A DNA stretch of 64,000 nt from an uncultured Eubacteriales bacterium (GCA_964644675.1 CAZXWK010000006.1:16341-80340); one strand, 5' to 3'. Positions 4,217-31,427 are shown, numbered from the stretch's first letter. Made by a program: numbers and translations. Notes: generated from the letters alone by a model not told the origin.

Positions 4217-4226
4217 CCGGATCCCC

Positions 4227-5857: not shown

Positions 5858-5863
5858 TCTCTG

Positions 5864-6994: not shown

Positions 6995-7000
6995 CCGCGC

Positions 7001-8131: not shown

Positions 8132-9126
8132 TACTCGGCCACCCCCAGGATGCTCTCGTCGTCCGAGCCGACGAGTTCACCGGCGCCCGGTATGAGCGTC
8201 GCGAACGCCATCTCCAGATCGGTCGGGGACGGGTGCATGTGCGCGACCGTGAACCCTGCGTTCTCGAGCGCTTCACGAAGCTCGTCCTCGCACTCGTCCT
8301 CGCCGACGCATTCCTGCACGAGCACGCGCAGCACCTCGCCGGACACCTCGACGCTCGACACGAACGTGAGGGCGCGGACGATCTCCATGGCCTGGCGATA
8401 GCGGTCGACCGCGACCTCGATCACGCGCCCCGGCACGCGCCTCTTCATCCCGGCGGGAGTGTCGCGCAGGATGATGCGGCCCTGCGTCATGAACGCGATC
8501 TCGTCGCAGCGGTCGGCTTCGTCCATGTACGGCGTGGCGACGAACACGGTGATCCCTTGCCGGTGCAGGTCGCTGATGATGCGCCAGAACTCCCGACGCG
8601 ACACGGGGTCGACGCCCGTGGTGGGCTCGTCGAGGAAGAGCAGGTCGGGCTCGCTGATGAGCGTGGCCGCCAGCGCGAGCTTCTGCTTCATGCCTCCCGA
8701 CAGGTACTGCGCCTGCCGGTCGCCGAATTCCGTGAGCCCCGAGAACTCGAGCAGCCTGGCGGAGCGCTCGGCCATCTCCGCACGAGGGACGCCCCTGAGC
8801 TCGGCGAAGAAGTTCAGGTTCTCCTGCACGGTCAGGTCGCCGTAGAGCGAGAACGCCTGCGACATGTAGCCGATTCGCGGCTTGACCGCATGCGGGTCGG
8901 TGGTGACCGAGTGGCCGAAGACCAGCGCGTCGCCCGATGTCGGCGTGAGGACGGTCGCCAACATGCGGATGAGGGTCGACTTGCCCGCGCCGTCCGGCCC
9001 GACAAGGCCGAACACCTCGCCGCGCGGGATGGTCATCGAGACGCCGTCGACCGCCGTGACCGACTTGAATTCGCGCCGGACGTCACGGATTTCGATCGCG
9101 ACCTCTGTCGGGGCCGCGTCGGTCAC
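8131..9126 (-). CDS. ABC transporter ATP-binding protein
   Basis: Walker A GPDGAGKST, LSGGMKQK, LLFLDEPTTGVDP. Confidence 0.92.
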   Translation of the reverse strand: MTDAAPTEVAIEIRDVRREFKSVTAVDGVSMTIPRGEVFGLVGPDGAGKSTLIRMLATVLTPTSGDALVFGHSVTTDPHAVKPRIGYMSQAFSLYGDLTVQENLNFFAELRGVPRAEMAERSARLLEFSGLTEFGDRQAQYLSGGMKQKLALAATLISEPDLLFLDEPTTGVDPVSRREFWRIISDLHRQGITVFVATPYMDEADRCDEIAFMTQGRIILRDTPAGMKRRVPGRVIEVAVDRYRQAMEIVRALTFVSSVEVSGEVLRVLVQECVGEDECEDELREALENAGFTVAHMHPSPTDLEMAFATLIPGAGELVGSDDESILGVAE

Positions 9127-9899
9127 TGAAGCACCACGTCAGCTGGCATGCCGGCCTTCAGCGCCGAGTCGGGATCGGTGATGCGGCACTTGACCTGATA
9201 GACGAGCTTGACGCGCTGGTCCTTGGTCTCGATCGAGGCGGGAGTGAACTCCGCTTGGGAACCGATGAAGGAGACCTCGACGTTGTAGGCCTTGGTGGTG
9301 GAGTCGGTGGTCAGCTTTCCCTTCTGGCCGATCTTCACCTCGCCGATGCGGTCCTCGGCGATGTAGATGGTGACGGTGAGCTGGGACGGGTCGCTCACGA
9401 CGGCGAGGGTGTTTCCCGGGACCGCATTCTCTCCCACGTTCGCGACCACGTTCGCGAGCGTTCCGTCGATCGGCGAGGCGATCGTCGCATAGCCGACTTG
9501 GACCTCGGCCATCTTCACCGCGATGACCGCCTGCTCGAGCTGCGCCCGGGCGGCGGCCTTCTCGGCCTTGGTCGAGCCGCTGTCGTCCTTGACGTGCTTG
9601 TAGTTGGCCGCGGCGGCGCGCTCGGCGGCTCTTGCCTGGTCAACCGTCAGTTGAGCGGTCGTCGGGTCGAGACGGTAGAGCACGTCACCCTTCTTCACGG
9701 GTACGCCTTCGTTGGGTGGGGCCTCGACGATGCGCCCTGTGGTCTGGGGGGTGACGGCGACCTGTTCGGTCTCGATCGTCCCCGATCCGCCCAGCACCCG
9801 CGACGCCGCGCCGCCGTCGCCGTAGAAGCGCTGGTAGGCGACGTAGCCGCCGACGGCCACCGCCACGATCAGAACGATCAGCGCGATCCTCTTGCCCAT
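9123..9899 (-). CDS. HlyD family periplasmic adaptor / membrane fusion protein (YbhG-like)
   Basis: N-terminal anchor, GVPVKKGDVLYRLD lipoyl-like motif, IASPIDG, AEFTPASIETKDQRVKLVY, LKAGMPADV. Confidence 0.88.
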   Translation of the reverse strand: MGKRIALIVLIVAVAVGGYVAYQRFYGDGGAASRVLGGSGTIETEQVAVTPQTTGRIVEAPPNEGVPVKKGDVLYRLDPTTAQLTVDQARAAERAAAANYKHVKDDSGSTKAEKAAARAQLEQAVIAVKMAEVQVGYATIASPIDGTLANVVANVGENAVPGNTLAVVSDPSQLTVTIYIAEDRIGEVKIGQKGKLTTDSTTKAYNVEVSFIGSQAEFTPASIETKDQRVKLVYQVKCRITDPDSALKAGMPADVVLQ

Positions 9900-9965
9900 G
9901 TCCTCAACGCTCCTGTCCTCGGTGCCGCAGGTCGTCACTCAGCCCGCCATCAGGGCGAGCGGTGG

Positions 9966-11195
9966 CTACTCGGTCTTCTCGATACGGATGTCGACGGGTG
10001 TCCCGGGGGGCGCCCAACCACCGCCGTCCAGCGTGATCACGACGCGCACGGCCTTGGTCATGTGCACGATGTCGGTGGGGAAGCTCGTGGGCGGGAAGAC
10101 CGCGCGATCTCCGATGGAGGTCACGGTTCCCGTCAGTGGTTCGCCCGCGTTCGAGTCGTAGTCGACGATCGCCTTCGCGCCCGGCGCGACGGCGAGCAGC
10201 TGCTCGCCGGTCAGGTACGTCTCGACCTGCGTCGCGGCGTCGGGCCTGATGCGCACCACCGGCGCGTTCACCATCGCGACGGTGCCGGCGGCGCGAGCCT
10301 CGGTGACGGTCCCGGTCGCCGGGGCGATGATGGTCGCCTGCGAGCGACGGTACTCCGCGACGTCGACGAGGATGTCCTGTCCGTCAGCGAGGATCGACAG
10401 CGTCTCGCGCGCGTTGGTGACCTGGGTGCGCGCGTCTCGGAGCGCCGACGCGCCCTGCGAGATTTTGGCCCTTCCCGAGTCGAGCTTGACCTGGGCGGTC
10501 GCAAGCTTCTTCTCGCCGGCCTCGACCTTGGCGAGGGTCGCCTTGAGCTGGGCGAGCTTCTGCGCGAGCGGCGGCGGCGGCCACGGTCCCGGCGGGTGCG
10601 GTCCCGCGATCGTTGCCTCGAGTGCCTTGATGCCCGCCTTGAGCTGGGACTTCCCAGTCGCGATTTCCTTCTTGGCGGCGTCGATCTTCTTCTGGGCGGT
10701 CGCCAGCTGGCTTCGCGCGTCGGCCAGCTTGCCCTGGTTGTCGGCGATTGTCCCGAGGTTGTCCTTCATCACGGACACCTGCGCATGGGCGCGCGCCGAC
10801 GAAGCTTTCGCGGCGGCCACTCCCAGATCCAGCACCGTCGTGTCGAGCTGCGCGATCGGAGTGCCGGAAGCGACGTGGTCACCAGTCTTCACGTAGACCG
10901 CGTCCAGCGATCCCGAGATGGTCGGCTGCATCGACGGCATCGCCGACGCGCCACGCCTCTGGCCGGCGGTGTTCGCGCTCATGCTCGCCGTGGGGGAGCT
11001 CGGAATCCCCGCCGCGACGTCGGGCGTGGGATAGGCGATCGCGGGCGCCTGAACCGTTCGCACGGTGCTGACGACGTTCCCCGAAACCCGGATCGCGTCC
11101 GTCGGACCGCTGGCGGCGTGACCGAACCACCACCACGCGCTGGCTGCCGCGGCAGCCACGAGTGCGATGCCGATGACGATCGGGAGCCGCTTCAC
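9966..11195 (-). CDS. HlyD family membrane fusion protein with long coiled coil
   Basis: N-terminal anchor, VKTGDHVASGTPIAQLD, coiled coil, IIAPATGTV, AVFPPTSFPTD, PPGTPVDI. Confidence 0.82.
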   Translation of the reverse strand: MKRLPIVIGIALVAAAAASAWWWFGHAASGPTDAIRVSGNVVSTVRTVQAPAIAYPTPDVAAGIPSSPTASMSANTAGQRRGASAMPSMQPTISGSLDAVYVKTGDHVASGTPIAQLDTTVLDLGVAAAKASSARAHAQVSVMKDNLGTIADNQGKLADARSQLATAQKKIDAAKKEIATGKSQLKAGIKALEATIAGPHPPGPWPPPPLAQKLAQLKATLAKVEAGEKKLATAQVKLDSGRAKISQGASALRDARTQVTNARETLSILADGQDILVDVAEYRRSQATIIAPATGTVTEARAAGTVAMVNAPVVRIRPDAATQVETYLTGEQLLAVAPGAKAIVDYDSNAGEPLTGTVTSIGDRAVFPPTSFPTDIVHMTKAVRVVITLDGGGWAPPGTPVDIRIEKTE

Positions 11196-11265
11196 GTTCT
11201 CTCCCTGCCTGCGAACCTGTTTCGGGCACTCGGCGGGCGGTGCCCGGGCGAGGTCCCTACACGAT

Positions 11266-11281
11266 GTGAGTTATCGCTCAC
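11266..11281. promoter_or_regulatory. Palindromic operator GTGAG-N6-CTCAC, probable site for the operon's TetR
   Basis: GTGAGTTATCGCTCAC lies immediately downstream of the minus-strand -10 element. Confidence 0.6.
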
Positions 11282-11346: not shown

Positions 11347-11379
11347 CCCACAAGCTGGTACGATGGTGAAGCTTGTGGG
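11347..11379. promoter_or_regulatory. 10-bp perfect inverted repeat enclosing a putative -10 of the cytochrome gene
   Basis: CCCACAAGCT-N13-AGCTTGTGGG. The spacer contains GGTACGAT (11357-11364). Confidence 0.5.
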
Positions 11380-14300
11380 GCATTAGGACAGGGGGTCCGC
11401 TGAACGCCCGCAATTCAGCAATCGGGGGGCCTGGGACCCTCCCGACAGTCAGCCGTCTCTCGGCGTTGTTCGAGGGGCGTCTTTCGCGTTACCCCGTTCC
11501 GTCCTCGATTCCTGCGTTTGTCGCGCTGACCAGCGCTTTCGTGACCTTCGTGCTTCTCGCGTGCGCTCTAGCGGCGACGCCCGCGTTCGCGGCTAACCCG
11601 CACACCGGGCTCTCACCGTCGACGGACCAGTGCAAGAGCTGCCACGCCGGCCACGGCTCTCCGAGTTCGTCGTCACTTCTGACCGAGAGCGATCAGAAGG
11701 CCCTCTGCTACGTCTGTCACGACGGCACCCAGAGCGCCTACAACGTCCAACAGGAGTTCGGCGACCGCGCTGATGGCTCGTCGTCCAAGGCCTCGCGGCA
11801 TCCGGTCAGCCCGGGTCAGCTCGAGTGCAGCGGCTGTCACACGCCGCACCGCGGTCCTCTCGAGGGCAACCCGATGTCGCTGGCAGCGGGCGCGTCCGAC
11901 GAGACGACCGGCAACGCCGTGTGTGGCTCATGCCACGGTGCGGGCTCGTCACTTCCGCAGGGCGACATGATGACCAACTACGTGGGCACCGCGCACGATA
12001 CGTCGATGTCCGCCTCCGAGACGGGCGGCTCGAGCATCAAGTGCCTCGCGTGCCACGAGCCCCACGGTTCGGACAACACGGCACTGATCGCCACGACCGT
12101 CCGGAGTCTCAGCGGTGAGACCCGCACCGTCTCCGTCAACGCGAGCACGGGCAGCACGCCTCTGTGCGTGGGGTGCCACGACACCAGCGACGGCACCTTC
12201 GGCGGCGGAGCAGCCTATATGGGCACGCCGCACTCCAGCGCGACGACCTCGACGGTGGCGTCGGTCAACTTCCCTGGAACGACCGGGGACCCGGGAGATT
12301 GCGACAACTGCCACTCGCCGCACGGAACCGGCAAGCCCCACATGGCGCGGGCGGCCGGCGACGACCTGTGCTACGGCTGTCACGACGCGGCCGGGACCAC
12401 CAAGCCCGCCGGCTACTCGTACCAGGGCAAGTCCGCGTACCAGGGTTCCGGGCACGCGACCATGAACGCCGGCGATATCCCGCAGGTCGTGTCGCTGACC
12501 GCCTCGAGCACCGACTTCCAGGCCTTCGAGTCCACGCAGGCTCCCACACCGTCCTCGCCCGGCACGCCCATGACCGCCGAGAAGACCCAGCGGCTCGTCT
12601 CGGTCGACTCGAGCTACGCGGTCACGTCTCTCGCCACGGCCACCGGGCAGCACGACTACCAGGTCTATCGGTTCAAGGTGCCGGCAGACGTCGCCGACAC
12701 CCAGTGGCTCAACCTGAGCTGGGCGGGGTATGGCGAGGAACTCGCCGGCTACGAGACCTCGGTCTCGGTGTGGTCCAAGTCCGCGAACGGCGGGTCCGGC
12801 GGCTGGAGTCGGATCTCAAACGGGCTGATGGCGGACCGCACCGCCGTCACCGCCAAGCTGGCCAACGCGCCGGACCTGATCGACGCGAACGGCTATGTCT
12901 GGGTGATGGGCGACGCCAAGAACGTCCGGCAGTCGACGATCGTAGGAACGCCGTCGGTGTCGTTCCCGACTTCGACCACCGCGCAGATCACGTGGACCAC
13001 CGAGGGATACGCGAGCAGCTGGGTGGATTACGGCATCACCTCGTCGTACGGCAGTACGGTCGGCACCAACACCCGTACCGTCAGCCACTCGGTGACGGTG
13101 CCGATCACCGCCGGCGGCAAGTACCGCTTCCAGGTTCGGGGCACCGCGCGCGATGGCGACAGCAGCTCCAGCGGTGAGCTGGGCTTCTCGGCGTCCGTCG
13201 TCACTCTGGTCCCGGCGCCCGACCTGTCGGGCACCCAGACGACGTTCTCCCAGACGTTCAATTGGGCGCACAACGACCCGGCGGGCGAGCCCTACACGTA
13301 CGACATCCGAATCCGGACGGCGTACTACCCCTACGACCAGACCCTCACCGGCCTCACGGCATCGACCCTGACCACCGACGTCTTCTGCTACGGCTCGAGC
13401 TACGCCATCTACGACTGGCAGGTTCGCGGCCGCGACAAGGACGGCTACTACACGCCGTGGTCGGCGATCGACCAGTTCACGGTCCGAGACCTCACGCCCA
13501 ACCCCGGCGGCTCGTGTCCCTTCCTGTTCGTCTGGAACGGATTCGGCTACGGCTTCGAAGCCGACATCAACACCGCCGGCATGATCGGCAGCAAGAACAC
13601 CTCGGGCTACATCAAGCCCGACCCCAAGGACCGCTACATCCTGACCAACCCGCCCGCCGAGACACTGGGCGGCTACGAGTTCCGCATGGTCGAGGAGCGC
13701 AACGAGATCGACTACACCGACGAGCTCAAGCTCTACACGGTGGACCTGCCCGAAGGCGTCGAGCTCGTCGCCGAGAAGGGCGAGCGCGGCGGCACGAGCC
13801 CGGCATTCCCGGGCGGCCTGCACACGGTGCAGAACCTGCGTGCGCCGGTCTCGGTGTACCGGACCGACACGGGCGAAGATGTCACTGACGCCATCGCGCT
13901 GACCGACGAGCAGCGCGTCCAGCTCAACGAGGACGCGAACATCGGCTTCGACTACAAGACGCTCGAAATCGACCTGGGTGACGTCTCGGGCGCACCTCAG
14001 GTGAAGATCGTCATGAATGCGCAGTCACTCAGGCCGTTCACGCCCGAGGGCCTCGCCCGCCAGCGTTCCTTCGGCGCGGGCACCAAGCTCGAGGTACAGC
14101 GCACCGACGGTACCTGGGAGCTGGTACCGACGAGCGAAGCGACGCTTCCCAATGCCATGGAGTTCGGGCGTACGTACGCGTTCGACATCACCAAGGCGAT
14201 GCACGACACCACGGGCAAGGTGCGTTTCACGTACCTGTTCAAGACGTACATCGACATGATCGGCGTGGACACGTCGCTCGACATCCCGGTCTATCCGGTC

Positions 14301-17300
14301 GAGGTTCCGATGACTTCGGCGTCTCTCGGCAGCCACGGTGTCGACTCCCGGTCGAACAGCACCGACATCTACAAGTACGTGTACGGCACGCAGACCGGCG
14401 AAGGTTCGCTCTTCCCTGGTGCCTACACGCGGTACGGAGACGTCACGCCGCTTCTGCAGTCCACCGATGACAAGTTCGTGGTGTACGGGCAGGGCGACGA
14501 GCTCACGCTGAGGTTCCTCAAGGCGTCAGAGCCGGCACCGGGCACTCGGCGAAGCTTCGTCGTCTATGTCGACGGCTACTACAAGAGCATGAAGTCGGCA
14601 GTGGAGCATGCGGTCGACCCCATGCCGTTCGCGGCGATGTCGAACTTCCCGTACGGCGCCGACGAGCACTACCCGGATGACGCAGACCACGTCGCCTACC
14701 AGCAGGAGTACAACACGCGTCTCGTCGAGGCCACGACTTCGGCAGCGCCGCCACTCGTGGCCACGGCCGAGAGCGCGTCGACGCTGCATCGCTCCCTCAA
14801 TGTCGACTTCGTCTCCGTCGACGTCGGCATACGCATCTCCGCGTCTGAGGGGGGCACCGGCTGTACGGTGTGTCACGCGGTCCACGGCGGCGGCGCCAAG
14901 AACGCTGACGGCACCGAGACCACCGGCACACTGGTCGCGCCCGAGCCTCAGCTGTGCACCGGCTTCGGATCTGGTGGCTGCCACGACAACGCGACGCGCA
15001 CCGCCGCCGGCGTCAACGTCAACGAGCGGATCACCGCGAGCGGCAACAATCTGACGCACCACGATCTGACCGAGTTCGCACAGGCCCAGACGGGCGCGCG
15101 GATCACGTGCACCAACTGCCACGACCCGCACACCAACAACGCCCTCTCACCCAGCTCGAATCCGGATGCAATCACGGCAAGCCTGCCGACGTCGATGGGT
15201 CCGTACCTGGACGCAAATGGTGCGACCTACCTGCTGGTGGGCGCGATGCACGATGCGACCGCACCGACCATCACCTCCGGGCCCACGATAGCGGGCGCCG
15301 GCAGCGGGTCGACCGTGCTTACTCCGACGGTGACGTGGACCACCAACGAGCCCAGCACCTCCTGGATCGACTTCGGCGTTTCGAGCGGCGTCTACATGAT
15401 GTCGTTTGGCAACAACGCTCTCGTCACCTCGCACACCGCGACGGCGACGGGGCTCGAGGTCGACACCACCTACTACTGGCGCGCACGCACTGTCGACGCG
15501 CTCGGCAACGTGCGCACCAGCGCAGAGGCGACCTACAGCACGACCATGCCGGCAGGGTCGATCACTTCGGGACCCACGCTGAGCGGGAACGGGTGGTCGA
15601 ACTACCAGACTCCTTCGGTCACGTGGACGACGAGCGACCAGTTCAGCACGATCCTCGAGTGGGGCACTTCGAGCGGTTCGTACACCTCGGACTACTCGGC
15701 GTCGGCGATGACCACCGCGCACGCCGCCGCTATGAGCGGCCTGACCACCGACACGGTCTACTACTGGCGCGTTCGGGGCGTCGACGCCATCGGGCGCTCG
15801 GTCACGTCGGCTGAGGCGACCTACCAGGCATCTCCGCCGGCGCAACCTGTGATTCTGACCGGGCCGATCATCAGCGGTCCGACGTGGTCGACGTTCACCT
15901 CGCCGACCGTCGCGTGGACCACCTCGGGCCTCACAACCTCGTGGCTTCAGTACGGAACGTCGAGCGGCAGCTACACGTCGTCGGTCGGGACCAACACGCT
16001 TTCGACCACGCATTCGGTGACTGCGAGCAGCCTGACGTCCGGCACCGTCTACTACATGCGGGTCTTCGGCCTTGACCCCGTGAACAGGCTGGTCGTCTCG
16101 AACGAGTTCACGTACACGCCCACGACGCCGGCCGCGCCGATCATCACGGCGGGCCCGACGATCGACGGATCGACGTACGCGAAGTCCTCGAGCCCTGTCA
16201 TCACGTGGACCACCGGGGACATCGCCTCGACCTGGGTCGACTGGGGGACCTCTCCCGGCGTCTACACCTCCAACGTCAACGTTGCGGGTAACACCACGGG
16301 CCACACGGTCACGCTCTCGGGGATGACATACGGCACGACGTACTACTGGCGCGCGCGCAGCGTGGATCCGGATGGGCGCATCGTGACGTCCGGCGAGTCC
16401 GCCTACACACCGGTTGCCTACCCGAGCCCGTCTGTCGCCTCGGTCGCGCCCAACCCCGCGTACTACGACTCGAGCATCCAGGCGGGTGCGGCGGTCAGCG
16501 CGTCCTGTACCGTCTCGACGATCGCCAATTCGAACTCGCTCGAGTATCGGCTCTTGCTCGACAACGTGGCGTACGGGTCGTGGCAGTCGTCCACCGAGTG
16601 GACGCTGCCGACCGTCGGCGTCGGCACGCACGGTCTCAAGGTCGCGGTCCGTGACGCCGCCACGCCCAGTAGCGTGACGACCGGCACGACCGAAACCTAC
16701 TTCGACGTGGTCGACACGTGGGTGGGCTGGGGGTCGTGCCCCTTCGTGTACACGTGGGACGGCAGCAGCTACCGATTCGAGGCCGACACGCTCACGGCGG
16801 CCCGTATCGGCGGCCCCACCGCAACCGGTTTCCAGCAGCCCAACCCCAACGACGCCTACGTGGTCAAGACGGTTCCGGCGGTCGAGGACGGCACCATCAA
16901 CTTCCGGCTCGTCGAGGAGCGCAAGGAAGTCGACTATCTCGACACCTACAAGCTCTTCGCGGTCGACGCACCCGCGAGCCTCCAAGTCTTCGCCGAGAAG
17001 GCCGTCGCCGGCGTCCGCACCTTCCCGCCGCTCGGCTCGGCCCTGCACACCGTTCGCGCACTCCGGGCGCCCGTCTCGGCGGTTCGGACCGACACGGGCG
17101 AGGACGTGCTGGCGGCGATCTCGACAGACGACGGAGACAGGATCGCGCTGAACGAGAGCGCCGAGACGTCGTTCACCTACAAGACGATCGAGCTCGACCT
17201 CGGTGACCAGGTCGCGACGGCGCCGCAGGTCAAGGTAGTCATGAACGCACTCTCCGAGTTCCCGGTCACCCCTGAGGGCATCGAGCGTCGCTTCACCTTC

Positions 17301-19112
17301 GGCGCACCCACCAAGCTCGCCGTACAGGATGCCGACGGCACGTGGCGATCCGTCACGGCCTCGGTGGGCGCGGTTCCGGCGGCGCCTGAGTTCGAGCGGC
17401 CCTACGTGTTCGATCTGACCAAGGCGGTCAAGGGAACCACGGGCAAGGTGCGATTCACGTTCTTGTTCCGCACGCTCATCGACTACATCGCCGTCGACAC
17501 CTCGAAGGACGAGCCCGTCAAGGTGACCGAGGTCCCGCTCGTCTCGGCGAAGCTGTCCTACCACGGCGTGGACCGGTACGCCGTGGTCGACGGTTCGCCT
17601 TCGTACTCGTACGGCACGCCGGTCGCCGCGGGCACCTTCTTCCCGGGTGCCTACACCCGCTACGGCGAAGTGGCACCGCTGCTCGACGCGGTCGACGACA
17701 AGTTCGTCGTGGCCGGCCAGGGCGATCAGCTCGACCTCTCGTTCACGGCTCCCCAAGCGCCGGCGTCGGGGCTCGCGCGCCACTACGTCTTCTCGCCCTA
17801 CGGCTACTACAAGGACGCGAAGACGAGCGTCGCGAAGACCGTCGAGCCGCTGCCGTTCGAGGCGATGTCGAACTACCCGTACCCCGAGACCGAGCAGTAC
17901 CCGACCGATGCCGAGCACACGCGTTACCTCGAGGAGTACAACACGCGCGAGGAGAGCGGACCCGCCGTCCTGAGCAAGCTCGAGCTTCCGGCCCTCGACG
18001 GTACCGCGCTCGCCAGAGCCGCCGGGCCGCTGTCCGATCGGATCGCCCTTGCCGAGAACCCCGGTCGCGTCACCGGGCGGTGGCACGAGCGCCATGCGAC
18101 CGACGTCATCTCGCGCGGCACGACTGTGAGCCGCCTCGTCGCGTCGACCGCGCCCGTTCACTACTCGGTGAACACCGACTACAGCCTGCTGACCGTCGAG
18201 TACCGGCGCGACAGCGTCACGACGCTCGCGCCCGACGCGGGTTGGGCCAGTGCGGGCACGACGCCGACACCGGGCGAACCCGGAACGCCGGCAGAGGCGT
18301 CCGATCTCGACCAGGTTCTGACGCAGAACGGCACGTACTGGATCACGGATATCGCGGCCGCCGAAGGGGTCTACAACTGGCAGCTCATGCGCTATTCGCT
18401 GCCGACGACGCCGTCGCCCGCGGGTGTGCGCAGCGTCCGCGTCGCGTGGACCGGCCACGGCGAGCCGACGGCGAACCACCCGACCGCGCTCTACCTGTGG
18501 AACTTCAAGACCTCGCGCTTCGACGTCCTGGCGAGCGGCACGTACGGCACCGACACCAGCGTCAACTCGGTCCGAGACATGTCTGACGGCGGCGCCAGCT
18601 GCCTGACGTGTCACGACGGTTCCGCTCCCGCCGGCGTGAAGTTCCCCTCAGCGGGCAAGAACATCGCCGGCACCTGGGTGACGGGGGCCAGCGGGGACTG
18701 GCACGGTCCGCGCGTGGGACCAGGTGGCGGCGCCAGCACACCGCTCGCGGCACCCTACACCTACGGCCAGTCCGCGGCGATCCCGTGCGAGACCTGCCAC
18801 GATCCTCACGGGTCGGGCAGCCTCTATCACGTGCCGGCCATGGTCAACGGCGTGCCGAACGTGTCCGTCACTTCGAGCACGACCGTCGAATCGCTGTGCG
18901 CGCCATGCCACACCGGCACCGCATACGACTGGCACTACTGGACGTGCAACTACTGTCACAACGATGCCGACGCGCACGAGGGCGAGCCGACGATCCAGTC
19001 GGGCACCGACTGTCTGTCCTGTCACGGGCACGGCGTGACCTTCACTCACCCGCACGAACGTGCCTTCTGCCACGGTTGTTCGCCCGACGGCGCGCAGTGG
19101 CGTACGTTCTAG
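11373..19112 (+). CDS. Giant secreted multiheme c-type cytochrome with FN3-like repeats and two 'GSCPF' domains
   Basis: 15 canonical CxxCH motifs (CKSCH, CYVCH, CSGCH, CGSCH, CLACH, CVGCH, CDNCH, CYGCH, CTVCH, CTNCH, CLTCH, CETCH, CAPCH, CNYCH, CLSCH), one CTGFGSGGCH, several CxxCHxPH, Sec-type signal ending AATPAFA. True start uncertain (TTG 11373 or 11466). Confidence 0.93.
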   Translation: MWGIRTGGPLNARNSAIGGPGTLPTVSRLSALFEGRLSRYPVPSSIPAFVALTSAFVTFVLLACALAATPAFAANPHTGLSPSTDQCKSCHAGHGSPSSSSLLTESDQKALCYVCHDGTQSAYNVQQEFGDRADGSSSKASRHPVSPGQLECSGCHTPHRGPLEGNPMSLAAGASDETTGNAVCGSCHGAGSSLPQGDMMTNYVGTAHDTSMSASETGGSSIKCLACHEPHGSDNTALIATTVRSLSGETRTVSVNASTGSTPLCVGCHDTSDGTFGGGAAYMGTPHSSATTSTVASVNFPGTTGDPGDCDNCHSPHGTGKPHMARAAGDDLCYGCHDAAGTTKPAGYSYQGKSAYQGSGHATMNAGDIPQVVSLTASSTDFQAFESTQAPTPSSPGTPMTAEKTQRLVSVDSSYAVTSLATATGQHDYQVYRFKVPADVADTQWLNLSWAGYGEELAGYETSVSVWSKSANGGSGGWSRISNGLMADRTAVTAKLANAPDLIDANGYVWVMGDAKNVRQSTIVGTPSVSFPTSTTAQITWTTEGYASSWVDYGITSSYGSTVGTNTRTVSHSVTVPITAGGKYRFQVRGTARDGDSSSSGELGFSASVVTLVPAPDLSGTQTTFSQTFNWAHNDPAGEPYTYDIRIRTAYYPYDQTLTGLTASTLTTDVFCYGSSYAIYDWQVRGRDKDGYYTPWSAIDQFTVRDLTPNPGGSCPFLFVWNGFGYGFEADINTAGMIGSKNTSGYIKPDPKDRYILTNPPAETLGGYEFRMVEERNEIDYTDELKLYTVDLPEGVELVAEKGERGGTSPAFPGGLHTVQNLRAPVSVYRTDTGEDVTDAIALTDEQRVQLNEDANIGFDYKTLEIDLGDVSGAPQVKIVMNAQSLRPFTPEGLARQRSFGAGTKLEVQRTDGTWELVPTSEATLPNAMEFGRTYAFDITKAMHDTTGKVRFTYLFKTYIDMIGVDTSLDIPVYPVEVPMTSASLGSHGVDSRSNSTDIYKYVYGTQTGEGSLFPGAYTRYGDVTPLLQSTDDKFVVYGQGDELTLRFLKASEPAPGTRRSFVVYVDGYYKSMKSAVEHAVDPMPFAAMSNFPYGADEHYPDDADHVAYQQEYNTRLVEATTSAAPPLVATAESASTLHRSLNVDFVSVDVGIRISASEGGTGCTVCHAVHGGGAKNADGTETTGTLVAPEPQLCTGFGSGGCHDNATRTAAGVNVNERITASGNNLTHHDLTEFAQAQTGARITCTNCHDPHTNNALSPSSNPDAITASLPTSMGPYLDANGATYLLVGAMHDATAPTITSGPTIAGAGSGSTVLTPTVTWTTNEPSTSWIDFGVSSGVYMMSFGNNALVTSHTATATGLEVDTTYYWRARTVDALGNVRTSAEATYSTTMPAGSITSGPTLSGNGWSNYQTPSVTWTTSDQFSTILEWGTSSGSYTSDYSASAMTTAHAAAMSGLTTDTVYYWRVRGVDAIGRSVTSAEATYQASPPAQPVILTGPIISGPTWSTFTSPTVAWTTSGLTTSWLQYGTSSGSYTSSVGTNTLSTTHSVTASSLTSGTVYYMRVFGLDPVNRLVVSNEFTYTPTTPAAPIITAGPTIDGSTYAKSSSPVITWTTGDIASTWVDWGTSPGVYTSNVNVAGNTTGHTVTLSGMTYGTTYYWRARSVDPDGRIVTSGESAYTPVAYPSPSVASVAPNPAYYDSSIQAGAAVSASCTVSTIANSNSLEYRLLLDNVAYGSWQSSTEWTLPTVGVGTHGLKVAVRDAATPSSVTTGTTETYFDVVDTWVGWGSCPFVYTWDGSSYRFEADTLTAARIGGPTATGFQQPNPNDAYVVKTVPAVEDGTINFRLVEERKEVDYLDTYKLFAVDAPASLQVFAEKAVAGVRTFPPLGSALHTVRALRAPVSAVRTDTGEDVLAAISTDDGDRIALNESAETSFTYKTIELDLGDQVATAPQVKVVMNALSEFPVTPEGIERRFTFGAPTKLAVQDADGTWRSVTASVGAVPAAPEFERPYVFDLTKAVKGTTGKVRFTFLFRTLIDYIAVDTSKDEPVKVTEVPLVSAKLSYHGVDRYAVVDGSPSYSYGTPVAAGTFFPGAYTRYGEVAPLLDAVDDKFVVAGQGDQLDLSFTAPQAPASGLARHYVFSPYGYYKDAKTSVAKTVEPLPFEAMSNYPYPETEQYPTDAEHTRYLEEYNTREESGPAVLSKLELPALDGTALARAAGPLSDRIALAENPGRVTGRWHERHATDVISRGTTVSRLVASTAPVHYSVNTDYSLLTVEYRRDSVTTLAPDAGWASAGTTPTPGEPGTPAEASDLDQVLTQNGTYWITDIAAAEGVYNWQLMRYSLPTTPSPAGVRSVRVAWTGHGEPTANHPTALYLWNFKTSRFDVLASGTYGTDTSVNSVRDMSDGGASCLTCHDGSAPAGVKFPSAGKNIAGTWVTGASGDWHGPRVGPGGGASTPLAAPYTYGQSAAIPCETCHDPHGSGSLYHVPAMVNGVPNVSVTSSTTVESLCAPCHTGTAYDWHYWTCNYCHNDADAHEGEPTIQSGTDCLSCHGHGVTFTHPHERAFCHGCSPDGAQWRTF
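15330..16420 (+). repeat. Four tandem FN3/purple-acid-phosphatase-N-like repeats in the cytochrome
   Basis: VTWTT/VTWTT/VAWTT/ITWTT start at 15330, 15618, 15909 and 16200 (spacing 288, 291, 291 nt). Each repeat has W/L..(F/W/Y)G..SG.Y, H and T.YY(W/M)R. Confidence 0.85.
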
Positions 19113-20620: not shown

Positions 20621-20664
20621 CGTAGGGCACCGGACAGTCGGTCCGATGTCAGGGGAGACACGAC

Positions 20665-22206
20665 TTGGCGAACGAGATAGTGAATAACGCGGACTCGCGC
20701 CGCAACTTCGGGCACGTCCTTCCGGGCGCGCTGTCATGGGCTGTCATCGTCCTGGCCGTGCTGGGCTCGCTCCTGTTTCCGCGGGTCTGGCTGGCCATCG
20801 CCACCATCTTCATGGCCTACGTCGTCTTCAGGCTGGTCGTGACGGCCAGCTTCATGGCGTGGGGGCAGCACCGCATCCACCAGGCCGAGAAGACCGATTT
20901 CACGCTCGGCGAGGATGAGGTCGGGCCGTTCGGGTTCGCGCCCTCTGATCTGCGGCACGTGGTCATCATCCCGAACTACAAGGAGCCCGCGGAGATCCTT
21001 CGCAGAACGCTCGAAGGCCTTGCGGCGCAGCACCGCGCCCCCGAGCGGCTCATCGTGGTTCTCGGCATGGAAGAGCGCGAGCAGGGGGCGCTCGAGAAGG
21101 GCTTGGCGCTCACCGCTGAGTTCGAGGGTCGGTTCCTGCACACGCTCGTGACCGTGCATCCCGGCAACATCGCCGGCGAGGAGCCCGGCAAGTCGTCGAA
21201 CGAGACGTGGGCCGCACGCAAGGCGCGGGCCGAGCTGGACGTCATCGGCGTGCCGATCGAACTCACGACGATCACGTCCTGCGACGCGGATTCCGTGCTG
21301 CACCCCAAGTACTTCTCGGCGGTGGCGGGCTCCTTCGCGGCGGACGAGCTGCGGTTCCGGACGTTCTGGCAGGCGCCGATCTTCTTCTACAACAACCTCT
21401 GGCAGGTTCCTGCGCCGGTGCGCTTCACCACCTCGTTGCAGCACGCGACCCAGCTGTCTGAGCTCGCGATGCCGTTCTACAACGCGCTCCCCATCTCGAC
21501 CTACACCCTCTCGATGCAGACTGCCGAGCAGTGCGGCTGGTGGGACGTCTCGGTGATCCCCGAGGACTGGCACTCGTGGCTGAACTGCCTCTTCGAGATG
21601 GGCGATGACATCCAGACCGTCCCGGTGTTCCTGCCCACGATGGGCGACGCGACGGACGGCGAGACGCTCATGGACGCCGTGCGCAACCGGTTCGAGCAGC
21701 TCAAGCGCCACTCTTGGGGTGCCGAGGACGTGGGGTTCATCTATGGCCAGCTGACTCAGCGGAAGCACACGTGGCGCCAGGCCACCGTCTTCCGTTTCGC
21801 GCAGGTCTTGCACGACCACGTGATGCGGGTCATCGGCTGGGTCTTCCTGATGAGCGTGTACGCGCTGAGCGCGTACTACACGCAGCTGCACTGGTACGAC
21901 TTGGGCTGGCACGCTTCAGTCGCGCAGAACCTCGCGGTACTGCGGTTCATGATGACCATCGGCGGTAGCGTCATGATCGGTTCGATCGTGGTCGAGCTGT
22001 GGCGTTGCCCGCCGCCCGACTCCGTCTCGAAGCTCAAGACGGCGGTCGAGCTCATGCTCATGTGGTTCCTGCTGCCGGTCATCGGGTTCTACCTTGGCAT
22101 GGCGCCCGCGCTCAGCGCGCAGACCCGGCTGCTGCTGGGGATCCCGCTCGGCTACAAGGTCACCCCGAAGCGCTTCACGGCCCCGGAGCCCCAGAAGGCC
22201 GGCTAG
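20665..22206 (+). CDS. Membrane-embedded family 2 glycosyltransferase (processive type)
   Basis: VIIPNYKE, GKSSN, SCDADS (DxD), IPEDW (acceptor Asp), QLKRHSWG (QxxRW variant), N- and C-terminal TM helices. Confidence 0.85.
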   Translation: MANEIVNNADSRRNFGHVLPGALSWAVIVLAVLGSLLFPRVWLAIATIFMAYVVFRLVVTASFMAWGQHRIHQAEKTDFTLGEDEVGPFGFAPSDLRHVVIIPNYKEPAEILRRTLEGLAAQHRAPERLIVVLGMEEREQGALEKGLALTAEFEGRFLHTLVTVHPGNIAGEEPGKSSNETWAARKARAELDVIGVPIELTTITSCDADSVLHPKYFSAVAGSFAADELRFRTFWQAPIFFYNNLWQVPAPVRFTTSLQHATQLSELAMPFYNALPISTYTLSMQTAEQCGWWDVSVIPEDWHSWLNCLFEMGDDIQTVPVFLPTMGDATDGETLMDAVRNRFEQLKRHSWGAEDVGFIYGQLTQRKHTWRQATVFRFAQVLHDHVMRVIGWVFLMSVYALSAYYTQLHWYDLGWHASVAQNLAVLRFMMTIGGSVMIGSIVVELWRCPPPDSVSKLKTAVELMLMWFLLPVIGFYLGMAPALSAQTRLLLGIPLGYKVTPKRFTAPEPQKAG

Positions 22207-22251
22207 CGCGGCCGAGGCAACGTCCCCACTCGAGAGCGGCAGGTGGTACCC

Positions 22252-23544: not shown

Positions 23545-23566
23545 CCACGCCAAGGAGCCCCGGCAC

Positions 23567-24934: not shown

Positions 24935-25030
24935 CAGACGCCGCGCTCCGGCCCGTTTCTGGTACGCTTCCCGCCGAGGGATGCGCCCCCGGGTTCAGGG
25001 GGCGTGACGGAGACGCGCTGGGAGGGTCTG

Positions 25031-25492
25031 ATGGCCGAAGAGCCGCTGGTCGGAATCATCATGGGCTCGCAGTCCGACATGGGCGTGATGGAGCTGTGCG
25101 CCGAGCAGCTCGAGGAGCTGGGCGTGCCCTTCGAACTGGTGGTCGCGAGTGCTCATCGCAACCCGGACCGGGTCCACGAGTGGGCCTCGACGGCGGCGGA
25201 CCGCGGCATGAAGGTCGTCGTTGCCGCGGCGGGCAAGGCGGCGCACCTGGGCGGCGTCGTCGCCGCGTTCACCCCTCTGCCGGTCATCACCGTCCCGATG
25301 AAAACGAGTGACCTTGGGGGCCTCGATTCGCTGCTCTCGATGGTGCAGATGCCGACCGGAGTGCCGGTTGCGTGCGTCGCGATCAACGGCGCCAAGAACG
25401 CCGCCATTCTCGCCACTCAGATACTGGGCACCTCGATGCCTGAGTATCGCGAACGGATCGTCGACTTGAAGAGGCGCATGGCCGAGGCGTGA
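25031..25492 (+). CDS. purE: N5-CAIR mutase
   Basis: [39 protein letters not shown]. Confidence 0.96.
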
Positions 25493-30257: not shown

Positions 30258-30417
30258 CGCGGGTCATCTCCTCTCGGGGCGACGAACCGCGTCGCCTCCT
30301 GTCACAGAGTGTCTGTACCCGCGTGGTGGACTCGGCGTTCCGGTCGCCCCGCTCGGGTACAAGCTGAGTGCGCGACCGAGCGCGTGCGGACGACCCGCCC
30401 ACCCGAGAGGAGCCGCG

Positions 30418-31315: not shown

Positions 31316-31319
31316 TACC

Positions 31320-31418: not shown

Positions 31419-31427
31419 TCACCTGAA

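What the first reader, a model, noticed from the sequence alone, without database searches (positions are those of the whole stretch)
11373..19112. ~2,500-aa secreted multiheme cytochrome with three separated heme clusters in a probable monoderm
Seen: 8 CxxCH at the N-terminus (11631-12383), 2 plus an atypical one centrally (14862-15122) and 5 at the C-terminus (18600-19025), separated by heme-free stretches of about 830 and 1,160 aa made of adhesin-like beta domains. There is a signal peptide but no C-terminal TM, LPxTG or SLH anchor. Known: large extracellular multiheme cytochromes mediate electron transfer to minerals or partner cells, and CxxCHxPH supplies distal His ligands. Inference: a surface or secreted redox-active adhesin for extracellular electron transfer. 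I do not recognise this domain combination from any characterised protein.
Basis: partly seen in the sequence, partly recalled or inferred. Interest (0 to 1): 0.85.

Follow-up and report, generated by a model that had tools for sequence, protein, structure and literature searches.

The report
Giant secreted multiheme cytochrome, uncharacterised family
A real 2,500-residue secreted protein from an uncultured subsurface actinobacterium carries 15-17 covalent heme sites in three groups, separated by binding-type beta domains, and belongs to an unstudied family that probably passes respiratory electrons to solids outside a Gram-positive cell.

Summary
ORF 11373-19112 (+) is intact and has coding-type composition. 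It carries 8 + 2 + 5 CxxCH motifs and an invariant central CX7CH; shuffles of the protein give 0.013 CxxCH. The same product occurs in two independent assemblies, and colinear homologues exist, so it is not a misassembly.

The organism is an uncultured Coriobacteriia of the Anaerosomatales/OPB41 type. This lineage has Gram-positive walls, many multiheme cytochromes, and one isolate that is an obligate Fe(III) reducer.

Layout:
- signal peptide
- MtrA-like octaheme wire
- CBM/MAM-like jelly roll
- 2 FN3
- a 410-aa Pfam-less beta domain ("DomX")
- triheme
- 4 FN3 and an Ig-like domain
- DomX
- jelly roll
- c7-like pentaheme, ending in ...RTF

Every heme has a conserved candidate distal His, which points to electron transfer rather than catalysis. 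There is no wall or membrane anchor and no conserved partner gene.

The protein belongs to an uncharacterised family of about 75 clusters at 50% identity. The family core is a half-size protein: triheme, FN3 stalk, DomX, jelly roll, pentaheme.

The best reading is an envelope or extracellular electron-transfer cytochrome with binding and spacer modules. How electrons cross the heme-free stretches is unresolved. I rate it a new variant of a known kind, of moderate to high interest.

The parts
11373..19112 (+). Whole ORF, 2,579 codons including the longest possible N-terminus. Alternative starts are TTG 11466 (aa 32) and GTG 11541 (aa 57, the start used by the database copy P0001, 2,523 aa).
11466..11591 (+). 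Signal peptide. Arg-containing n-region, a hydrophobic core (the only hydrophobic segment of the protein) and an AFA|A signal-peptidase-I-type site just before the conserved NPH motif.
   Evidence: hydropathy; AxA|xNPHG conserved in homologues. No signal-peptide predictor was available, so this is read from the sequence.
11595..12467 (+). Heme group H1 (aa 75-365). 8 CxxCH plus 8 conserved non-motif His (77, 143, 159, 208, 231, 287, 317, 361). MtrA/DmsE-like linear multiheme 'wire'.
   Evidence: Pfam Paired_CXXCH_1 at 115 bits against a cut-off of 20.6, 7 stretches. Partial TIGR03508 DmsE-family hit. Profile against PDB: 6r2q chain A E 4.2e-18, OmhA 6qvm E 2.5e-6. His conservation.
12495..12932 (+). 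Domain A1 (aa ~375-520). Jelly-roll beta-sandwich of the CBM/MAM type, with a conserved PTPxxPGTP and W-x-G-x-G-E signature.
   Evidence: AF2 pLDDT about 90 over this part. Foldseek: neuropilin MAM E 4.7e-4, alginate CBM, CBM16/22, phage phi812 baseplate protein. 30% identical to A2.
12933..13502 (+). Two FN3-like domains of the Pur_ac_phosph_N type (aa 521-710).
   Evidence: Self-similarity to the four central FN3-like repeats. Pfam PF16656 at 53.5 bits against a cut-off of 30.
13509..14747 (+). DomX copy 1 (aa 713-1125). A ~410-aa all-beta three-subdomain module that opens with an invariant S-C-P-F motif and ends with PLPFxAMSNYPY...WNTR. No Pfam family covers it.
   Evidence: 53% identical to copy 2. 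AF2 pLDDT 92.4, pTM 0.90. No PDB match with E<1e-3. No Pfam or NCBIfam hit.
14781..15257 (+). Heme group H2 (aa 1137-1295). An invariant H-R-S-L-N-x-D strand, CxxCH at 1164 and 1246, the invariant C1195-x7-C1203-H, and 5 conserved non-motif His.
15258..16442 (+). Four FN3-like repeats (aa 1296-1690), a variable-length stalk. Only 3 of 15 homologues have all four. The H2-to-DomX2 distance ranges from 243 to 545 aa across the family.
16443..16727 (+). Ig-like beta domain (aa 1691-1785) that precedes DomX2. It is present in all homologues and in the half-size family members.
   Evidence: The fold assignment is inferred from sequence pattern only.
16731..17975 (+). DomX copy 2 (aa 1787-2201).
18168..18572 (+). 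Domain A2 (aa ~2266-2400), the second CBM/MAM-like jelly roll. It is preceded by the H-Y-S-V-N-T-D strand.
   Evidence: 30% identical to A1, E 8e-12. Conserved with H3 as a C-terminal module in about 75 clusters.
18573..19109 (+). Heme group H3 (aa 2401-2579). 5 CxxCH, 7 conserved non-motif His, a degenerate terminal C-H-G-C site, and a C-terminus ...W-R-T-F. Its C-terminal part is cytochrome c7 / GSU1996-like.
   Evidence: Pfam Cytochrome_C7 at 44.4 bits against a cut-off of 24.8. Profile against PDB: 3ov0 E 1.6e-9. Alignment. Terminal x-[T/A/S]-F in nearly all family members.

Best explanation
The gene encodes a Sec-exported c-type multiheme cytochrome that works outside the cytoplasmic membrane of a monoderm, anaerobic, subsurface Coriobacteriia of the Anaerosomatales/OPB41 type.

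It belongs to an uncharacterised family. The family's core unit is: triheme module with a CX7CH site, FN3 stalk, Ig, DomX, CBM-like jelly roll, c7-like pentaheme module, C-terminal Phe. In this protein the core is extended at the N-terminus by an MtrA-like octaheme wire, a second jelly roll, two FN3 domains and a second DomX.

All 15-17 hemes appear to be bis-His electron-transfer hemes. I think the most likely function is extracellular electron transfer. On that reading:
- the N-terminal heme wire, nearest the membrane, takes electrons from membrane or wall-zone cytochromes;
- the beta modules (jelly rolls, DomX) hold the protein in the wall or matrix, or on a solid or polymeric acceptor;
- the FN3 stalk, which varies in length, projects the C-terminal block of DomX, jelly roll and pentaheme beyond the wall, where it reduces Fe(III) minerals, humics or a partner.

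Shown here: secretion signal, heme motifs, domain identities, family, lineage.

Inferred: the direction and acceptor of electron flow, surface retention, and how electrons cross the heme-free stretches. The options for the last are folding back so the heme groups touch, bridging by other cytochromes, or collisions of flexibly tethered modules.
For: Reality of the gene:
- A real, intact gene, also assembled in two independent assemblies.
- 15 CxxCH against 0.013 expected.

Electron-transfer character of the heme modules:
- H1 is homologous to the MtrA decaheme wire (E 4.2e-18) and more distantly to the Gram-positive surface reductase OmhA.
- H3 is homologous to the Geobacter c7-type dodecaheme GSU1996.
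- Conserved non-motif His number 8, 5 and 7 for the 8, 3 and 5-6 hemes. There is no CxxCK and no conserved Met in the heme groups.

Export and non-heme modules:
- Signal peptide with a conserved AxA site. Some homologues have an N-terminal TM-like segment instead, which places the N-terminus near the membrane.
- The non-heme modules are extracellular binding or spacer folds.
- Only the FN3 stalk between H2 and DomX2 varies in length (243-545 aa). The other spacings are constant.

Lineage:
- PurA is 86-92% identical to subsurface Coriobacteriia/HGW-Actinobacteria MAGs, which have been predicted to be iron reducers because of their many MHCs (PMC5520028).
- Cultured Anaerosomatales are Gram-positive, encode 17-18 MHCs plus cytochrome c biogenesis genes, and one is an obligate Fe(III) reducer (PMC9686372).
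- The window carries rubrerythrin, an anaerobe marker.

Family behaviour:
- The protein evolves fast. It is about 40% identical between genomes whose PurA is about 89% identical, as expected for an exposed surface protein.
- The family's closest DomX relatives are often fused to or adjacent to other MHC genes. Relatives carry further MHC-binding-module fusions next door.
Against: - There are no experimental data for any family member.
- There is no conserved gene partner. The homologues sit among housekeeping genes (leuS, comEC, holA, rpsT, lepA; here purA/purD), so context gives no functional support.
- No wall or membrane anchor was found, so surface retention is unproven.
- If the protein is extended, heme-free stretches of 826 and 1,159 aa would put the heme groups far beyond electron-tunnelling distance. 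I could not test whether they pack together.
- No cytochrome c maturation genes lie in the 64-kb window.
- The genome scan returned no locus titled as either cultured Anaerosomatales isolate. Neither isolate was searched directly.
- DomX is common in proteins with no heme (CRTAC1-type, CARDB fusions, stand-alone), so it is not EET-specific.
Confidence: 0.6

Rival explanations
1. It is a structural, redox-active matrix or scaffold protein, or a capacitor. On this reading it is released into the wall or extracellular matrix, where its three heme groups are docking and relay stations for smaller cytochromes or soluble shuttles. It would not itself be the terminal reductase, and the beta modules would bind matrix polysaccharide.
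For: - No anchor.
- Heme groups separated by long non-conductive spacers.
- CBM-like jelly rolls.
- The relatives encode many other MHCs, some adjacent to the homologue.
- P. hydrogeniphila forms a dense extracellular matrix on ferrihydrite (PMC9686372).
Against: - No polysaccharide ligand or binding-site residues were identified.
- The Foldseek matches to CBMs are weak (E 5e-4 to 1e-2, TM below 0.4).
- Sequence alone cannot distinguish this from the main explanation.
Confidence: 0.15
2. It works in the opposite direction, taking electrons up from Fe(II) minerals, cathodes, reduced humics or a syntrophic partner, using the same architecture.
For: - MtrA-type and c7-type modules are reversible electron carriers (established knowledge of Mtr/MtoA systems).
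- The lineage lives in H2- and mineral-rich subsurface settings (PMC5520028).
Against: - Cultured relatives use H2 or formate as donors and Fe(III), S0 or thiosulfate as acceptors.
- Nothing in the window suggests an electron sink such as nitrate or O2 reductases.
Confidence: 0.1
3. It is an extracellular redox enzyme, for example a reductase of a soluble oxyanion or of a polymer-bound substrate. The binding modules would target the substrate and one heme would be catalytic.
For: - The H1 profile weakly matches octaheme nitrite reductases, OTR and NrfA (E 2.5e-4 to 1e-3).
- OcwA and OmhA, the characterised Gram-positive surface MHCs, show nitrite reductase activity in vitro (PMC9250108).
- The atypical CX7CH and terminal C-H-x-C sites could form special centres.
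Against: - Every canonical heme has a conserved candidate sixth-ligand His.
- There is no CxxCK.
- The strongest homologies are to pure electron carriers, MtrA and GSU1996.
Confidence: 0.08
4. It is an artefact: a chimeric assembly, or a decaying pseudogene that happens to stay open.
For: Very long ORFs in high-GC DNA can be spurious, and antisense shadow ORFs up to 1,155 aa do occur here.
Against: - GC3 is 0.88 with a coding-type GC1/GC2 pattern.
- An identical product is present in two other assemblies.
- Colinear homologues show all heme Cys and His invariant.
- There are no long repeats.
Confidence: 0.02

Closest known systems
MtrA / DmsE-family decaheme cytochromes (Shewanella; PDB 6R2Q chain A)
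   Same: The N-terminal octaheme group H1 is homologous. The profile E-value is 4.2e-18 over three stretches, and there is a partial TIGR03508 hit. It shares the same CxxCH...H spacing pattern and the same role as a linear bis-His electron wire.
   Different: - 8 hemes instead of 10.
- It scores far below the family cut-off (51.8 against 192.2 bits).
- There is no porin partner, since the host has no outer membrane.
- Here it is only the first ~290 aa of a 2,500-aa multidomain protein.
GSU1996 / cytochrome c7-type multi-domain cytochromes (Geobacter; PDB 3OV0)
   Same: The C-terminal part of H3 matches c7-type triheme units. The Pfam Cytochrome_C7 hit is above its cut-off, and the profile E-value is 1.6e-9.
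   Different: GSU1996 is a periplasmic chain of four c7 domains with no non-heme modules. Here a single c7-like unit ends a giant protein and is preceded by a jelly-roll domain.
OcwA (Thermincola potens) and OmhA (Carboxydothermus ferrireducens), cell-surface terminal reductases of Gram-positive bacteria
   Same: - The same cell type (monoderm) and the same proposed job.
- Secreted multiheme proteins.
- H1 shows distant similarity to OmhA residues 312-511 (E 2.5e-6; identity of 6QVM from PMC9250108).
   Different: - OcwA and OmhA are compact 9- and 11-heme NrfA-related proteins with two penta-coordinated hemes. [quoted passage not shown]
- This protein has no SLH domain and no OcwA hit.
- Every canonical heme here has a conserved candidate sixth-ligand His.
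- It has three separated heme groups and about 1,900 aa of beta modules.
MtrC/OmcA-type outer-surface decahemes
   Same: The principle of alternating beta-domains with multiheme domains in one chain. Some homologues carry faint precomputed PF22113 hits.
   Different: - The local Pfam scan found no PF22113 hit for the window protein at E<=1.
- MtrC is compact, about 650 aa, with a continuous heme cross.
- It is lipid-anchored on an outer membrane.
S-layer-domain multiheme fusions of ANME-2 / Methanoperedens archaea (from my own knowledge of McGlynn et al. 2015; cited in PMC5520028)
   Same: The concept: very large envelope cytochromes in which heme modules flank a non-heme envelope domain, proposed to carry electrons across a non-conductive cell envelope.
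   Different: - No detectable homology.
- The non-heme modules are different (S-layer domain there; FN3, DomX and jelly roll here).
- A different domain of life.
CRTAC1-family / ASPIC-UnbV proteins of Acidobacteriota and Planctomycetota
   Same: They carry the same ~410-aa DomX at their C-terminus, about 30-35% identical over the full length.
   Different: They have TPR, FG-GAP/VCBS and UnbV_ASPIC domains and no hemes. The window protein has none of those domains.

Membership tests
c-type multiheme cytochrome | Multiple CxxCH covalent heme-attachment motifs | tested here: met
   15 CxxCH, with 0.013 expected by chance. All are conserved in homologues.
c-type multiheme cytochrome | Export signal, because heme attachment takes place outside the cytoplasm | tested here: met
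   A single N-terminal hydrophobic segment ending in AFA|A. The AxA|xNPHG pattern is conserved. No dedicated signal-peptide predictor was available.
c-type multiheme cytochrome | Cytochrome c maturation system (System II ResB/ResC-CcsBA plus CcdA, or Ccm) in the same genome | not testable with these tools
   None in the 64-kb window. The only candidate is a DsbD_2 (CcdA-like)-cupredoxin fusion inside a copper island. Cultured relatives encode biogenesis genes (PMC9686372).
c-type multiheme cytochrome | Heme actually attached to the protein | not testable with these tools
   Needs heme staining or mass spectrometry.
Paired_CXXCH_1 (PF09699 / TIGR01905) domain proteins | Score above the curated cut-off | tested here: met
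   115.2 bits against 20.6, 7 stretches. TIGR01905 gives 83.6 bits against 25.2.
DmsE/MtrA family decaheme (TIGR03508) | Full-length match above the cut-off, and ten hemes | tested here: not met
   51.8 bits against a cut-off of 192.2. Only profile positions 129-227 of 258 are matched, and H1 has 8 hemes. Homology of H1 to MtrA is nevertheless clear.
GSU2203 family decaheme (NF041028) | Score above the cut-off | tested here: not met
   31.7 bits against 325.
MtrC/OmcA family | MtrC-MtrF domain II/IV pentaheme domains (PF22113) | tested here: not met
   No hit at E<=1 in the local Pfam scan of the window protein. Only faint precomputed hits exist, in some homologues.
OcwA/OmhA clade (NrfA-related cell-surface MHCs of Firmicutes) | Homology across the 9- or 11-heme core, and two penta-coordinated hemes | tested here: not met
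   There is only a partial profile match to OmhA (E 2.5e-6, residues 312-511) and no OcwA match. Every canonical heme has a conserved candidate distal His.
Cytochrome c7 superfamily (PF14522) | Domain score above the cut-off | tested here: met
   44.4 bits against 24.8. The H3 profile matches 3ov0 at E 1.6e-9.
Covalently or non-covalently wall-anchored Gram-positive surface proteins | LPXTG sortase signal, or SLH, LysM or CW_binding domains, or a lipobox | tested here: not met
   No such Pfam or NCBIfam hits. The C-terminus is ...QWRTF. The Cys in the signal peptide (VLLAC) does not fit the organism's typical lipobox, as seen in the lipoprotein at 54173 (LTSAGC).
CRTAC1 / ASPIC-UnbV family | FG-GAP/VCBS repeats plus a UnbV_ASPIC domain | tested here: not met
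   Both are absent from the window protein. They are present in the acidobacterial DomX carrier L057. Only DomX is shared.
The uncharacterised 'jelly roll + pentaheme C-terminal module' family (this report) | C-terminal jelly roll + 5-heme module ending in x-[T/A/S]-F; DomX; a triheme with CX6-7CH preceded by H-R-S-L-N-x-D | tested here: met
   All features are present and colinear with P0002-P0017 and with the half-size member P0100 (46% identity over 1,000 aa).

The most novel reading that the evidence does not exclude
The family is a new type of envelope-crossing electron conduit for monoderm bacteria. In it, short heme wires are not contiguous but are held on a rigid, variable-length FN3/DomX scaffold. 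Electrons would pass between modules by tethered-domain collisions, a 'swinging-arm' mechanism, or by head-to-tail contacts between molecules. The invariant C-x7-CH would be a previously undescribed covalent heme-attachment motif that needs an unusual lyase specificity. DomX would be a new mineral- or polymer-binding fold.
Probability: 0.15. Interest if true: 0.8.

Novelty: new variant of a known kind. Interest (0 to 1): 0.55.

Why it matters
It is still poorly understood how Gram-positive bacteria move respiratory electrons across a thick, non-conductive wall. Only a few proteins have been studied, chiefly OcwA and OmhA.

This family comes from a cosmopolitan subsurface lineage (OPB41/Anaerosomatales, HGW-Actinobacteria) that is repeatedly tied to iron reduction. 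It has a very different design: three small heme wires spaced by about 1,900 residues of binding and stalk domains.

If the design is functional, there are two possibilities. Either the fold brings the heme groups together in a way that sequence does not reveal, or electron transfer uses tethered or intermolecular steps. Both are testable and both would widen current models.

Two by-products are useful on their own:
- an invariant CX7CH candidate heme site, for which the paper library holds no mention;
- DomX, a ~410-aa extracellular domain with no Pfam family, a confident model and no structural relative.

Tried and rejected
Searches that led nowhere:
- Whole-protein PDB sequence search: nothing better than E 0.007. 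Only profiles of the separate heme groups were informative.
- Foldseek of DomX against PDB and BFVD: no match with a meaningful TM-score. The best were discoidin or Eph-LBD-like subdomain hits and phage fibre proteins at TM of 0.2 or less. DomX stays unassigned.
- AF2 of H1 without hemes gave low confidence (pLDDT 45-75). I used only the jelly-roll part of that model.
- Promoter and terminator scan, Rfam and tRNA scans around the gene and across the window: nothing.
- Literature look-ups for DRR182650, GCA_004348925/RCMX01 and CX7CH returned nothing.

Ideas considered and rejected:
- Operon partners. The divergent HlyD/ABC-2 transporter upstream is present on the two DRR contigs but at none of the five homologue loci whose genes were listed, so I do not link it to the cytochrome.
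- The CcdA-like DsbD_2 gene at 31362-32672 as evidence for cytochrome maturation. It is fused to a cupredoxin and sits between copper ATPases.
- A lipoprotein anchor via Cys64. The context does not fit a lipobox, and the AxA site is the conserved feature.
- The Cys-Pro at the start of DomX as a heme-regulatory motif. The same motif is invariant in heme-free CRTAC1-type proteins, and I had no way to test it.
- 'DomX is EET-specific'. Two of the four closest stand-alone DomX genes examined have no cytochrome neighbours.
- The single CxxCH in ORF 55142-55999. It lies in a probable non-coding N-terminal extension of a sensor gene.

Full report
**1. The observation**

The window is 65-72% G+C throughout. 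A single ORF of 2,579 codons runs from 11373 to 19112 on the + strand. Its GC by codon position is 0.58/0.55/0.88, the pattern of real genes in this window. The long antisense ORFs, such as 15147-18614, have the shadow pattern instead.

- eight at aa 87-337;
- two at aa 1164 and 1246;
- five at aa 2410-2551.

The 'atypical' central site is C1195-x7-C1203-H1204.

Shuffling the protein 5,000 times gives 0.013 CxxCH on average. No other frame in the 64 kb holds more than one.

The only hydrophobic segment is N-terminal, aa 46-75, and ends in AFA|ANPH. Pfam and NCBIfam find no LPXTG, SLH, LysM or other wall-binding domain.

The start codon is uncertain. The candidates are TTG 11373, TTG 11466 and GTG 11541, and none has a convincing Shine-Dalgarno sequence. 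TTG 11466 would give the most conventional signal peptide.

Three results exclude misassembly:
- An identical 2,523-aa product is called on contigs of two other assemblies, DRR182650 and DRR182651.
- The gene has no long near-identical DNA repeats.
- Many colinear homologues exist.

**2. Anatomy**

Self-comparison, Pfam, two AlphaFold models and family alignments give the following order. All coordinates are aa of the 2,579-codon ORF.

| Module | aa | Notes |
|---|---|---|
| Signal peptide | to 73 | AFA\|A site |
| H1 | 75-365 | 8 hemes |
| Jelly roll A1 | ~375-520 | |
| Two FN3-like domains | 521-710 | |
| DomX1 | 713-1125 | |
| H2 | 1137-1295 | conserved H-R-S-L-N-x-D strand, 2 CxxCH + CX7CH |
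| Four FN3-like domains | 1296-1690 | |
| Ig-like domain | 1691-1785 | |
| DomX2 | 1787-2201 | 53% identical to DomX1 |
| Linker | 2202-2265 | contains H-Y-S-V-N-T-D |
| Jelly roll A2 | ~2266-2400 | 30% identical to A1 |
| H3 | 2401-2579 | 5 CxxCH, a degenerate C-H-G-C, C-terminal ...WRTF |

The protein is acidic, with 249 D+E against 148 K+R, and rich in Thr, Ser, Ala and Gly.

**3. The heme groups**

A profile of H1 from 11 family members hits PDB 6r2q chain A at E 4.2e-18 in three stretches.
- The tool's molecule label for that chain is wrong. From my own knowledge, 6R2Q is the Shewanella baltica MtrCAB complex and chain A is MtrA.
- The printed alignment is plainly a decaheme sequence.
- The partial TIGR03508 DmsE-family hit agrees.

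Weaker H1 hits are OmhA (6qvm, E 2.5e-6; identity confirmed in PMC9250108), NrfB, octaheme nitrite reductases, OmcE and OmcS.

A profile of H3 hits the Geobacter c7-type dodecaheme GSU1996 (3ov0) at E 1.6e-9. Pfam Cytochrome_C7 is above its cut-off.

The family alignment shows conserved His residues outside the motifs:
- eight in H1, for 8 hemes;
- five in H2, for 3 hemes if CX7CH binds heme;
- seven in H3, for 5-6 hemes.

There is no conserved Met in the heme groups and no CxxCK. This is the signature of low-spin bis-His electron-transfer hemes, not of a catalytic centre.

The CX7CH site is invariant across the family, and CX6CH in one member. The paper library holds no mention of such a motif. 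Whether it binds heme is open.

**4. The non-heme modules**

- **FN3-like repeats.** They are of the purple-acid-phosphatase N-terminal type, scoring 53.5 bits against a cut-off of 30.
- **Domain A.** It models with pLDDT of about 90 as a jelly roll. It resembles MAM domains, several carbohydrate-binding modules and a phage baseplate protein, but only weakly: E 5e-4 to 1e-2, TM below 0.4. Some database copies carry a faint precomputed PF27237 (AF_1625_C) hit. That family is not in my local Pfam copy, and I could not tell which part of the protein it covers.
- **DomX.**
  - It has no Pfam or NCBIfam family.
  - With 50 aligned relatives it gives a very confident model: pLDDT 92.4, pTM 0.90, all-beta, three subdomains.
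  - That model has no PDB match at E<1e-3 and nothing meaningful in BFVD.
  - DomX is widespread.
  - Most of the 80 loci kept are the C-terminal ~410 aa of a protein in Acidobacteriota or Planctomycetota. The two I read are ~1,100-aa proteins, and the one I scanned has TPR, FG-GAP and UnbV_ASPIC domains.
  - It also occurs fused to CARDB and as stand-alone proteins of 450-750 aa.
  - Of the four closest stand-alone relatives I checked, two are fragments of, or neighbours to, large multiheme genes. Two have no cytochrome nearby.

DomX is therefore a general extracellular module of unknown ligand, recruited into this cytochrome family.

**5. The family**

The word-indexed search found about 17 colinear proteins of 1,900-3,000 aa at 31-50% identity. 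They are labelled 'hypothetical protein' or 'cytochrome c3 family protein', and come from Actinobacteria/Actinomycetia MAGs and one Clostridia MAG.

In GTDB species genomes, full-length copies are in five loci:
- Actinobacteria UBA2279;
- an uncultured Actinomycetes MAG (MFD03804);
- Anaerosomatales Yes46-06;
- a Coriobacteriales MAG;
- a Coriobacteriia MAG.

An exhaustive HMMER search with the C-terminal 350 aa (A2 + H3) found 75 representative clusters at E<1e-30. In the complete proteins the module sits at the C-terminus.

Nearly all members end in x-[T/A/S]-F. I cannot explain this.

Heme numbers are stable at 7-8 + 2(+1) + 4-6. A few members have expanded N-terminal groups, with 24-26 CxxCH in total.

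Spacing is informative:

| Interval | Length |
|---|---|
| H1 to DomX1 | ~370 aa, constant |
| DomX1 to H2 | ~450-480 aa, constant |
| DomX2 to H3 | ~600 aa, constant |
| H2 to DomX2 | 243-545 aa, variable (one to four FN3) |

Only 3 of 15 homologues carry all four FN3 repeats of that stalk.

Half-size members exist. P0100 (1,317 aa) is colinear with window aa 1587-2579 at 46% identity and begins with an H2-like group.

The family core is therefore: triheme, FN3 stalk, Ig, DomX, jelly roll, pentaheme. The window protein adds an N-terminal block of MtrA-like wire, jelly roll, two FN3 and DomX.

**6. Organism and context**

PurA, encoded just downstream, is 89-92% identical to proteins of 'Coriobacteriia bacterium' MAGs. 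It is 86% identical to HGW-Actinobacteria-1 and -6 from Horonobe groundwater.

What is known about that lineage:
- The Horonobe clade was predicted to reduce iron because of its many large MHCs (PMC5520028).
- A Coriobacteriales with 37 MHCs was the fourth most abundant genome in an anode biofilm (PMC7399161).
- The first OPB41 isolates have Gram-positive walls and 17-18 MHCs plus cytochrome c biogenesis genes. Parvivirga hydrogeniphila is an obligate Fe(III) reducer (PMC9686372).
- That paper does not describe a protein like this one. The genome scan returned no locus titled as either isolate, but I did not search either isolate directly, so this is not evidence of absence.

The window also encodes rubrerythrin.

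The cytochrome gene stands alone:
- Upstream and divergent lie two HlyD-like adaptors and an ABC/ABC-2 exporter.
- Downstream lie purA, a glycosyltransferase, purD, a radical SAM gene and purE.
- In four relatives the homologue is inserted at two different points of a conserved housekeeping block: EamA-[here]-leuS-comEA-comEC-holA-rpsT-[or here]-lepA.
- In a fifth relative it lies elsewhere.

There is thus no conserved partner.

The genome that holds P0006 has a PurA 89% identical to the window's, but its giant cytochrome is only about 39-42% identical. That fast divergence fits an exposed protein.

No ResB/ResC or Ccm gene lies in the window. The DsbD_2 (CcdA-like) gene at 31362-32672 is fused to a cupredoxin and sits among copper ATPases, so I do not count it.

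**7. Mechanism**

Shown here:
- a Sec-type exported protein;
- 15 canonical and up to two atypical heme sites;
- heme modules homologous to electron carriers;
- extracellular binding and stalk modules;
- no anchor;
- membership of an uncharacterised family in a monoderm, MHC-rich lineage with one cultured Fe(III) reducer.

Inferred: it serves extracellular electron transfer.

The N-terminus is probably membrane-proximal, because some homologues have an N-terminal TM-like segment instead of a cleavable signal. The constant N-block holds 11 hemes, and the FN3 stalk would carry the C-block of DomX, jelly roll and pentaheme outward.

The open problem is the heme-free stretches. A fully extended chain of six FN3 domains, an Ig domain, two DomX and two jelly rolls would keep the heme groups tens of nanometres apart (my estimate from typical domain sizes). 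That is far beyond tunnelling range. Three solutions are possible:
- the blocks fold so that the groups touch, as the beta and heme domains do in MtrC;
- other cytochromes or shuttles bridge them;
- flexible tethering lets the modules collide.

The variable stalk length argues against a single rigid compact fold that includes all the FN3 repeats.

I give about 0.6 to extracellular electron transfer in the broad sense, and much less to any particular way of crossing the gaps.

**8. Comparison and novelty**

The protein works like the surface and envelope cytochromes of other metal reducers, and it contains modules homologous to MtrA and c7. It fails the membership tests for the DmsE/MtrA, GSU2203, MtrC/OmcA and OcwA/OmhA families. 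It shares only DomX with CRTAC1-type proteins.

No member of its own family has been characterised or, as far as my searches show, discussed.

I rate it a new variant of a known kind: a multiheme EET-type cytochrome with a new modular architecture.

Three elements are worth follow-up:
- the separated heme groups;
- the invariant CX7CH;
- the structurally orphan DomX.

Noticed in passing
window 13509-14747 and 16731-17975; loci L006-L079: DomX is a ~410-aa extracellular all-beta domain. It has an invariant S-C-P-F start and a PLPFxAMSxYPY...NTR end. It has no Pfam family, a very confident AF2 model (pLDDT 92) and no structural relative in PDB. In the loci I examined it forms the C-terminus of TPR/FG-GAP/UnbV_ASPIC (CRTAC1-type) proteins of Acidobacteriota and Planctomycetota. 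It is a candidate for a new domain family.
   Followed up: partly
window 19101-19109; C-termini of P0002-P0238: Nearly every member of the cytochrome family ends in x-[T/A/S]-F (here W-R-T-F), including very divergent members. A conserved C-terminal Phe recalls the outer-membrane-protein sorting signal of diderms, yet this lineage is monoderm. I have no explanation.
   Followed up: partly
window 14955-14984: An invariant C-x7-C-H motif (CX6CH in one homologue) lies inside the central heme group. The paper library contains no mention of such a motif. It could be a new heme-attachment motif, or a disulfide next to a ligand His.
   Followed up: partly
window 1923-11270 (- strand): A long run of exporter genes lies divergent from the cytochrome gene: two HlyD-like adaptors (9123-9938, 9966-11270), two ABC ATPases (8131-9138, 4862-5863) and four ABC-2 permeases (7001-8176, 5864-7000, 3041-4255, 1923-3503). 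The adaptors are also present on the DRR182650/1 contigs but not at the homologue loci of other genomes.
   Followed up: partly
window 27934-37084: A copper-homeostasis island. It holds a P-type ATPase (27934-30078, -), MsrB/SelR (30238-30831), a DsbD_2 (CcdA-like) membrane protein fused to a cupredoxin domain (31362-32672), and a 1,288-aa P-type ATPase with four HMA domains and a DUF6286-like stretch (33218-37084).
   Followed up: no
window 22207-25492: A radical SAM gene (ORF 23075-24934; its true start is probably downstream of the purD stop at 23544) is inserted between purD and purE in a purine-biosynthesis cluster. The cluster also contains a GT2-like glycosyltransferase (20626-22206) between purA and purD.
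   Followed up: no
L083 8327-9370 and 17743-21555; L085 5758-6810 and 17071-20979: In relatives, the giant cytochrome is flanked within the housekeeping block by further multiheme genes. One is a ~350-aa MHC. Another is a 1,270-1,302-aa MHC, and the L085 copy carries an F5/8 type C (discoidin) domain. Fusing heme modules to binding modules therefore appears to be a habit of this lineage.
   Followed up: no
window 51872-53125 (-) and 45864-46505 (-): A radical SAM/SPASM maturase-type gene and a rubrerythrin gene. Rubrerythrin fits a strictly anaerobic lifestyle. No peptide substrate was looked for near the SPASM gene.
   Followed up: no
L087 6015-13271: On a long-read metagenome contig, five adjacent same-strand ORFs look like one giant homologue split by frameshifts. 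They are cytochrome c7-like, GSu_C4xC__C2xCH, DomX, paired-CXXCH and c7-like. 'Stand-alone' DomX proteins in databases may therefore partly be assembly fragments.
   Followed up: partly
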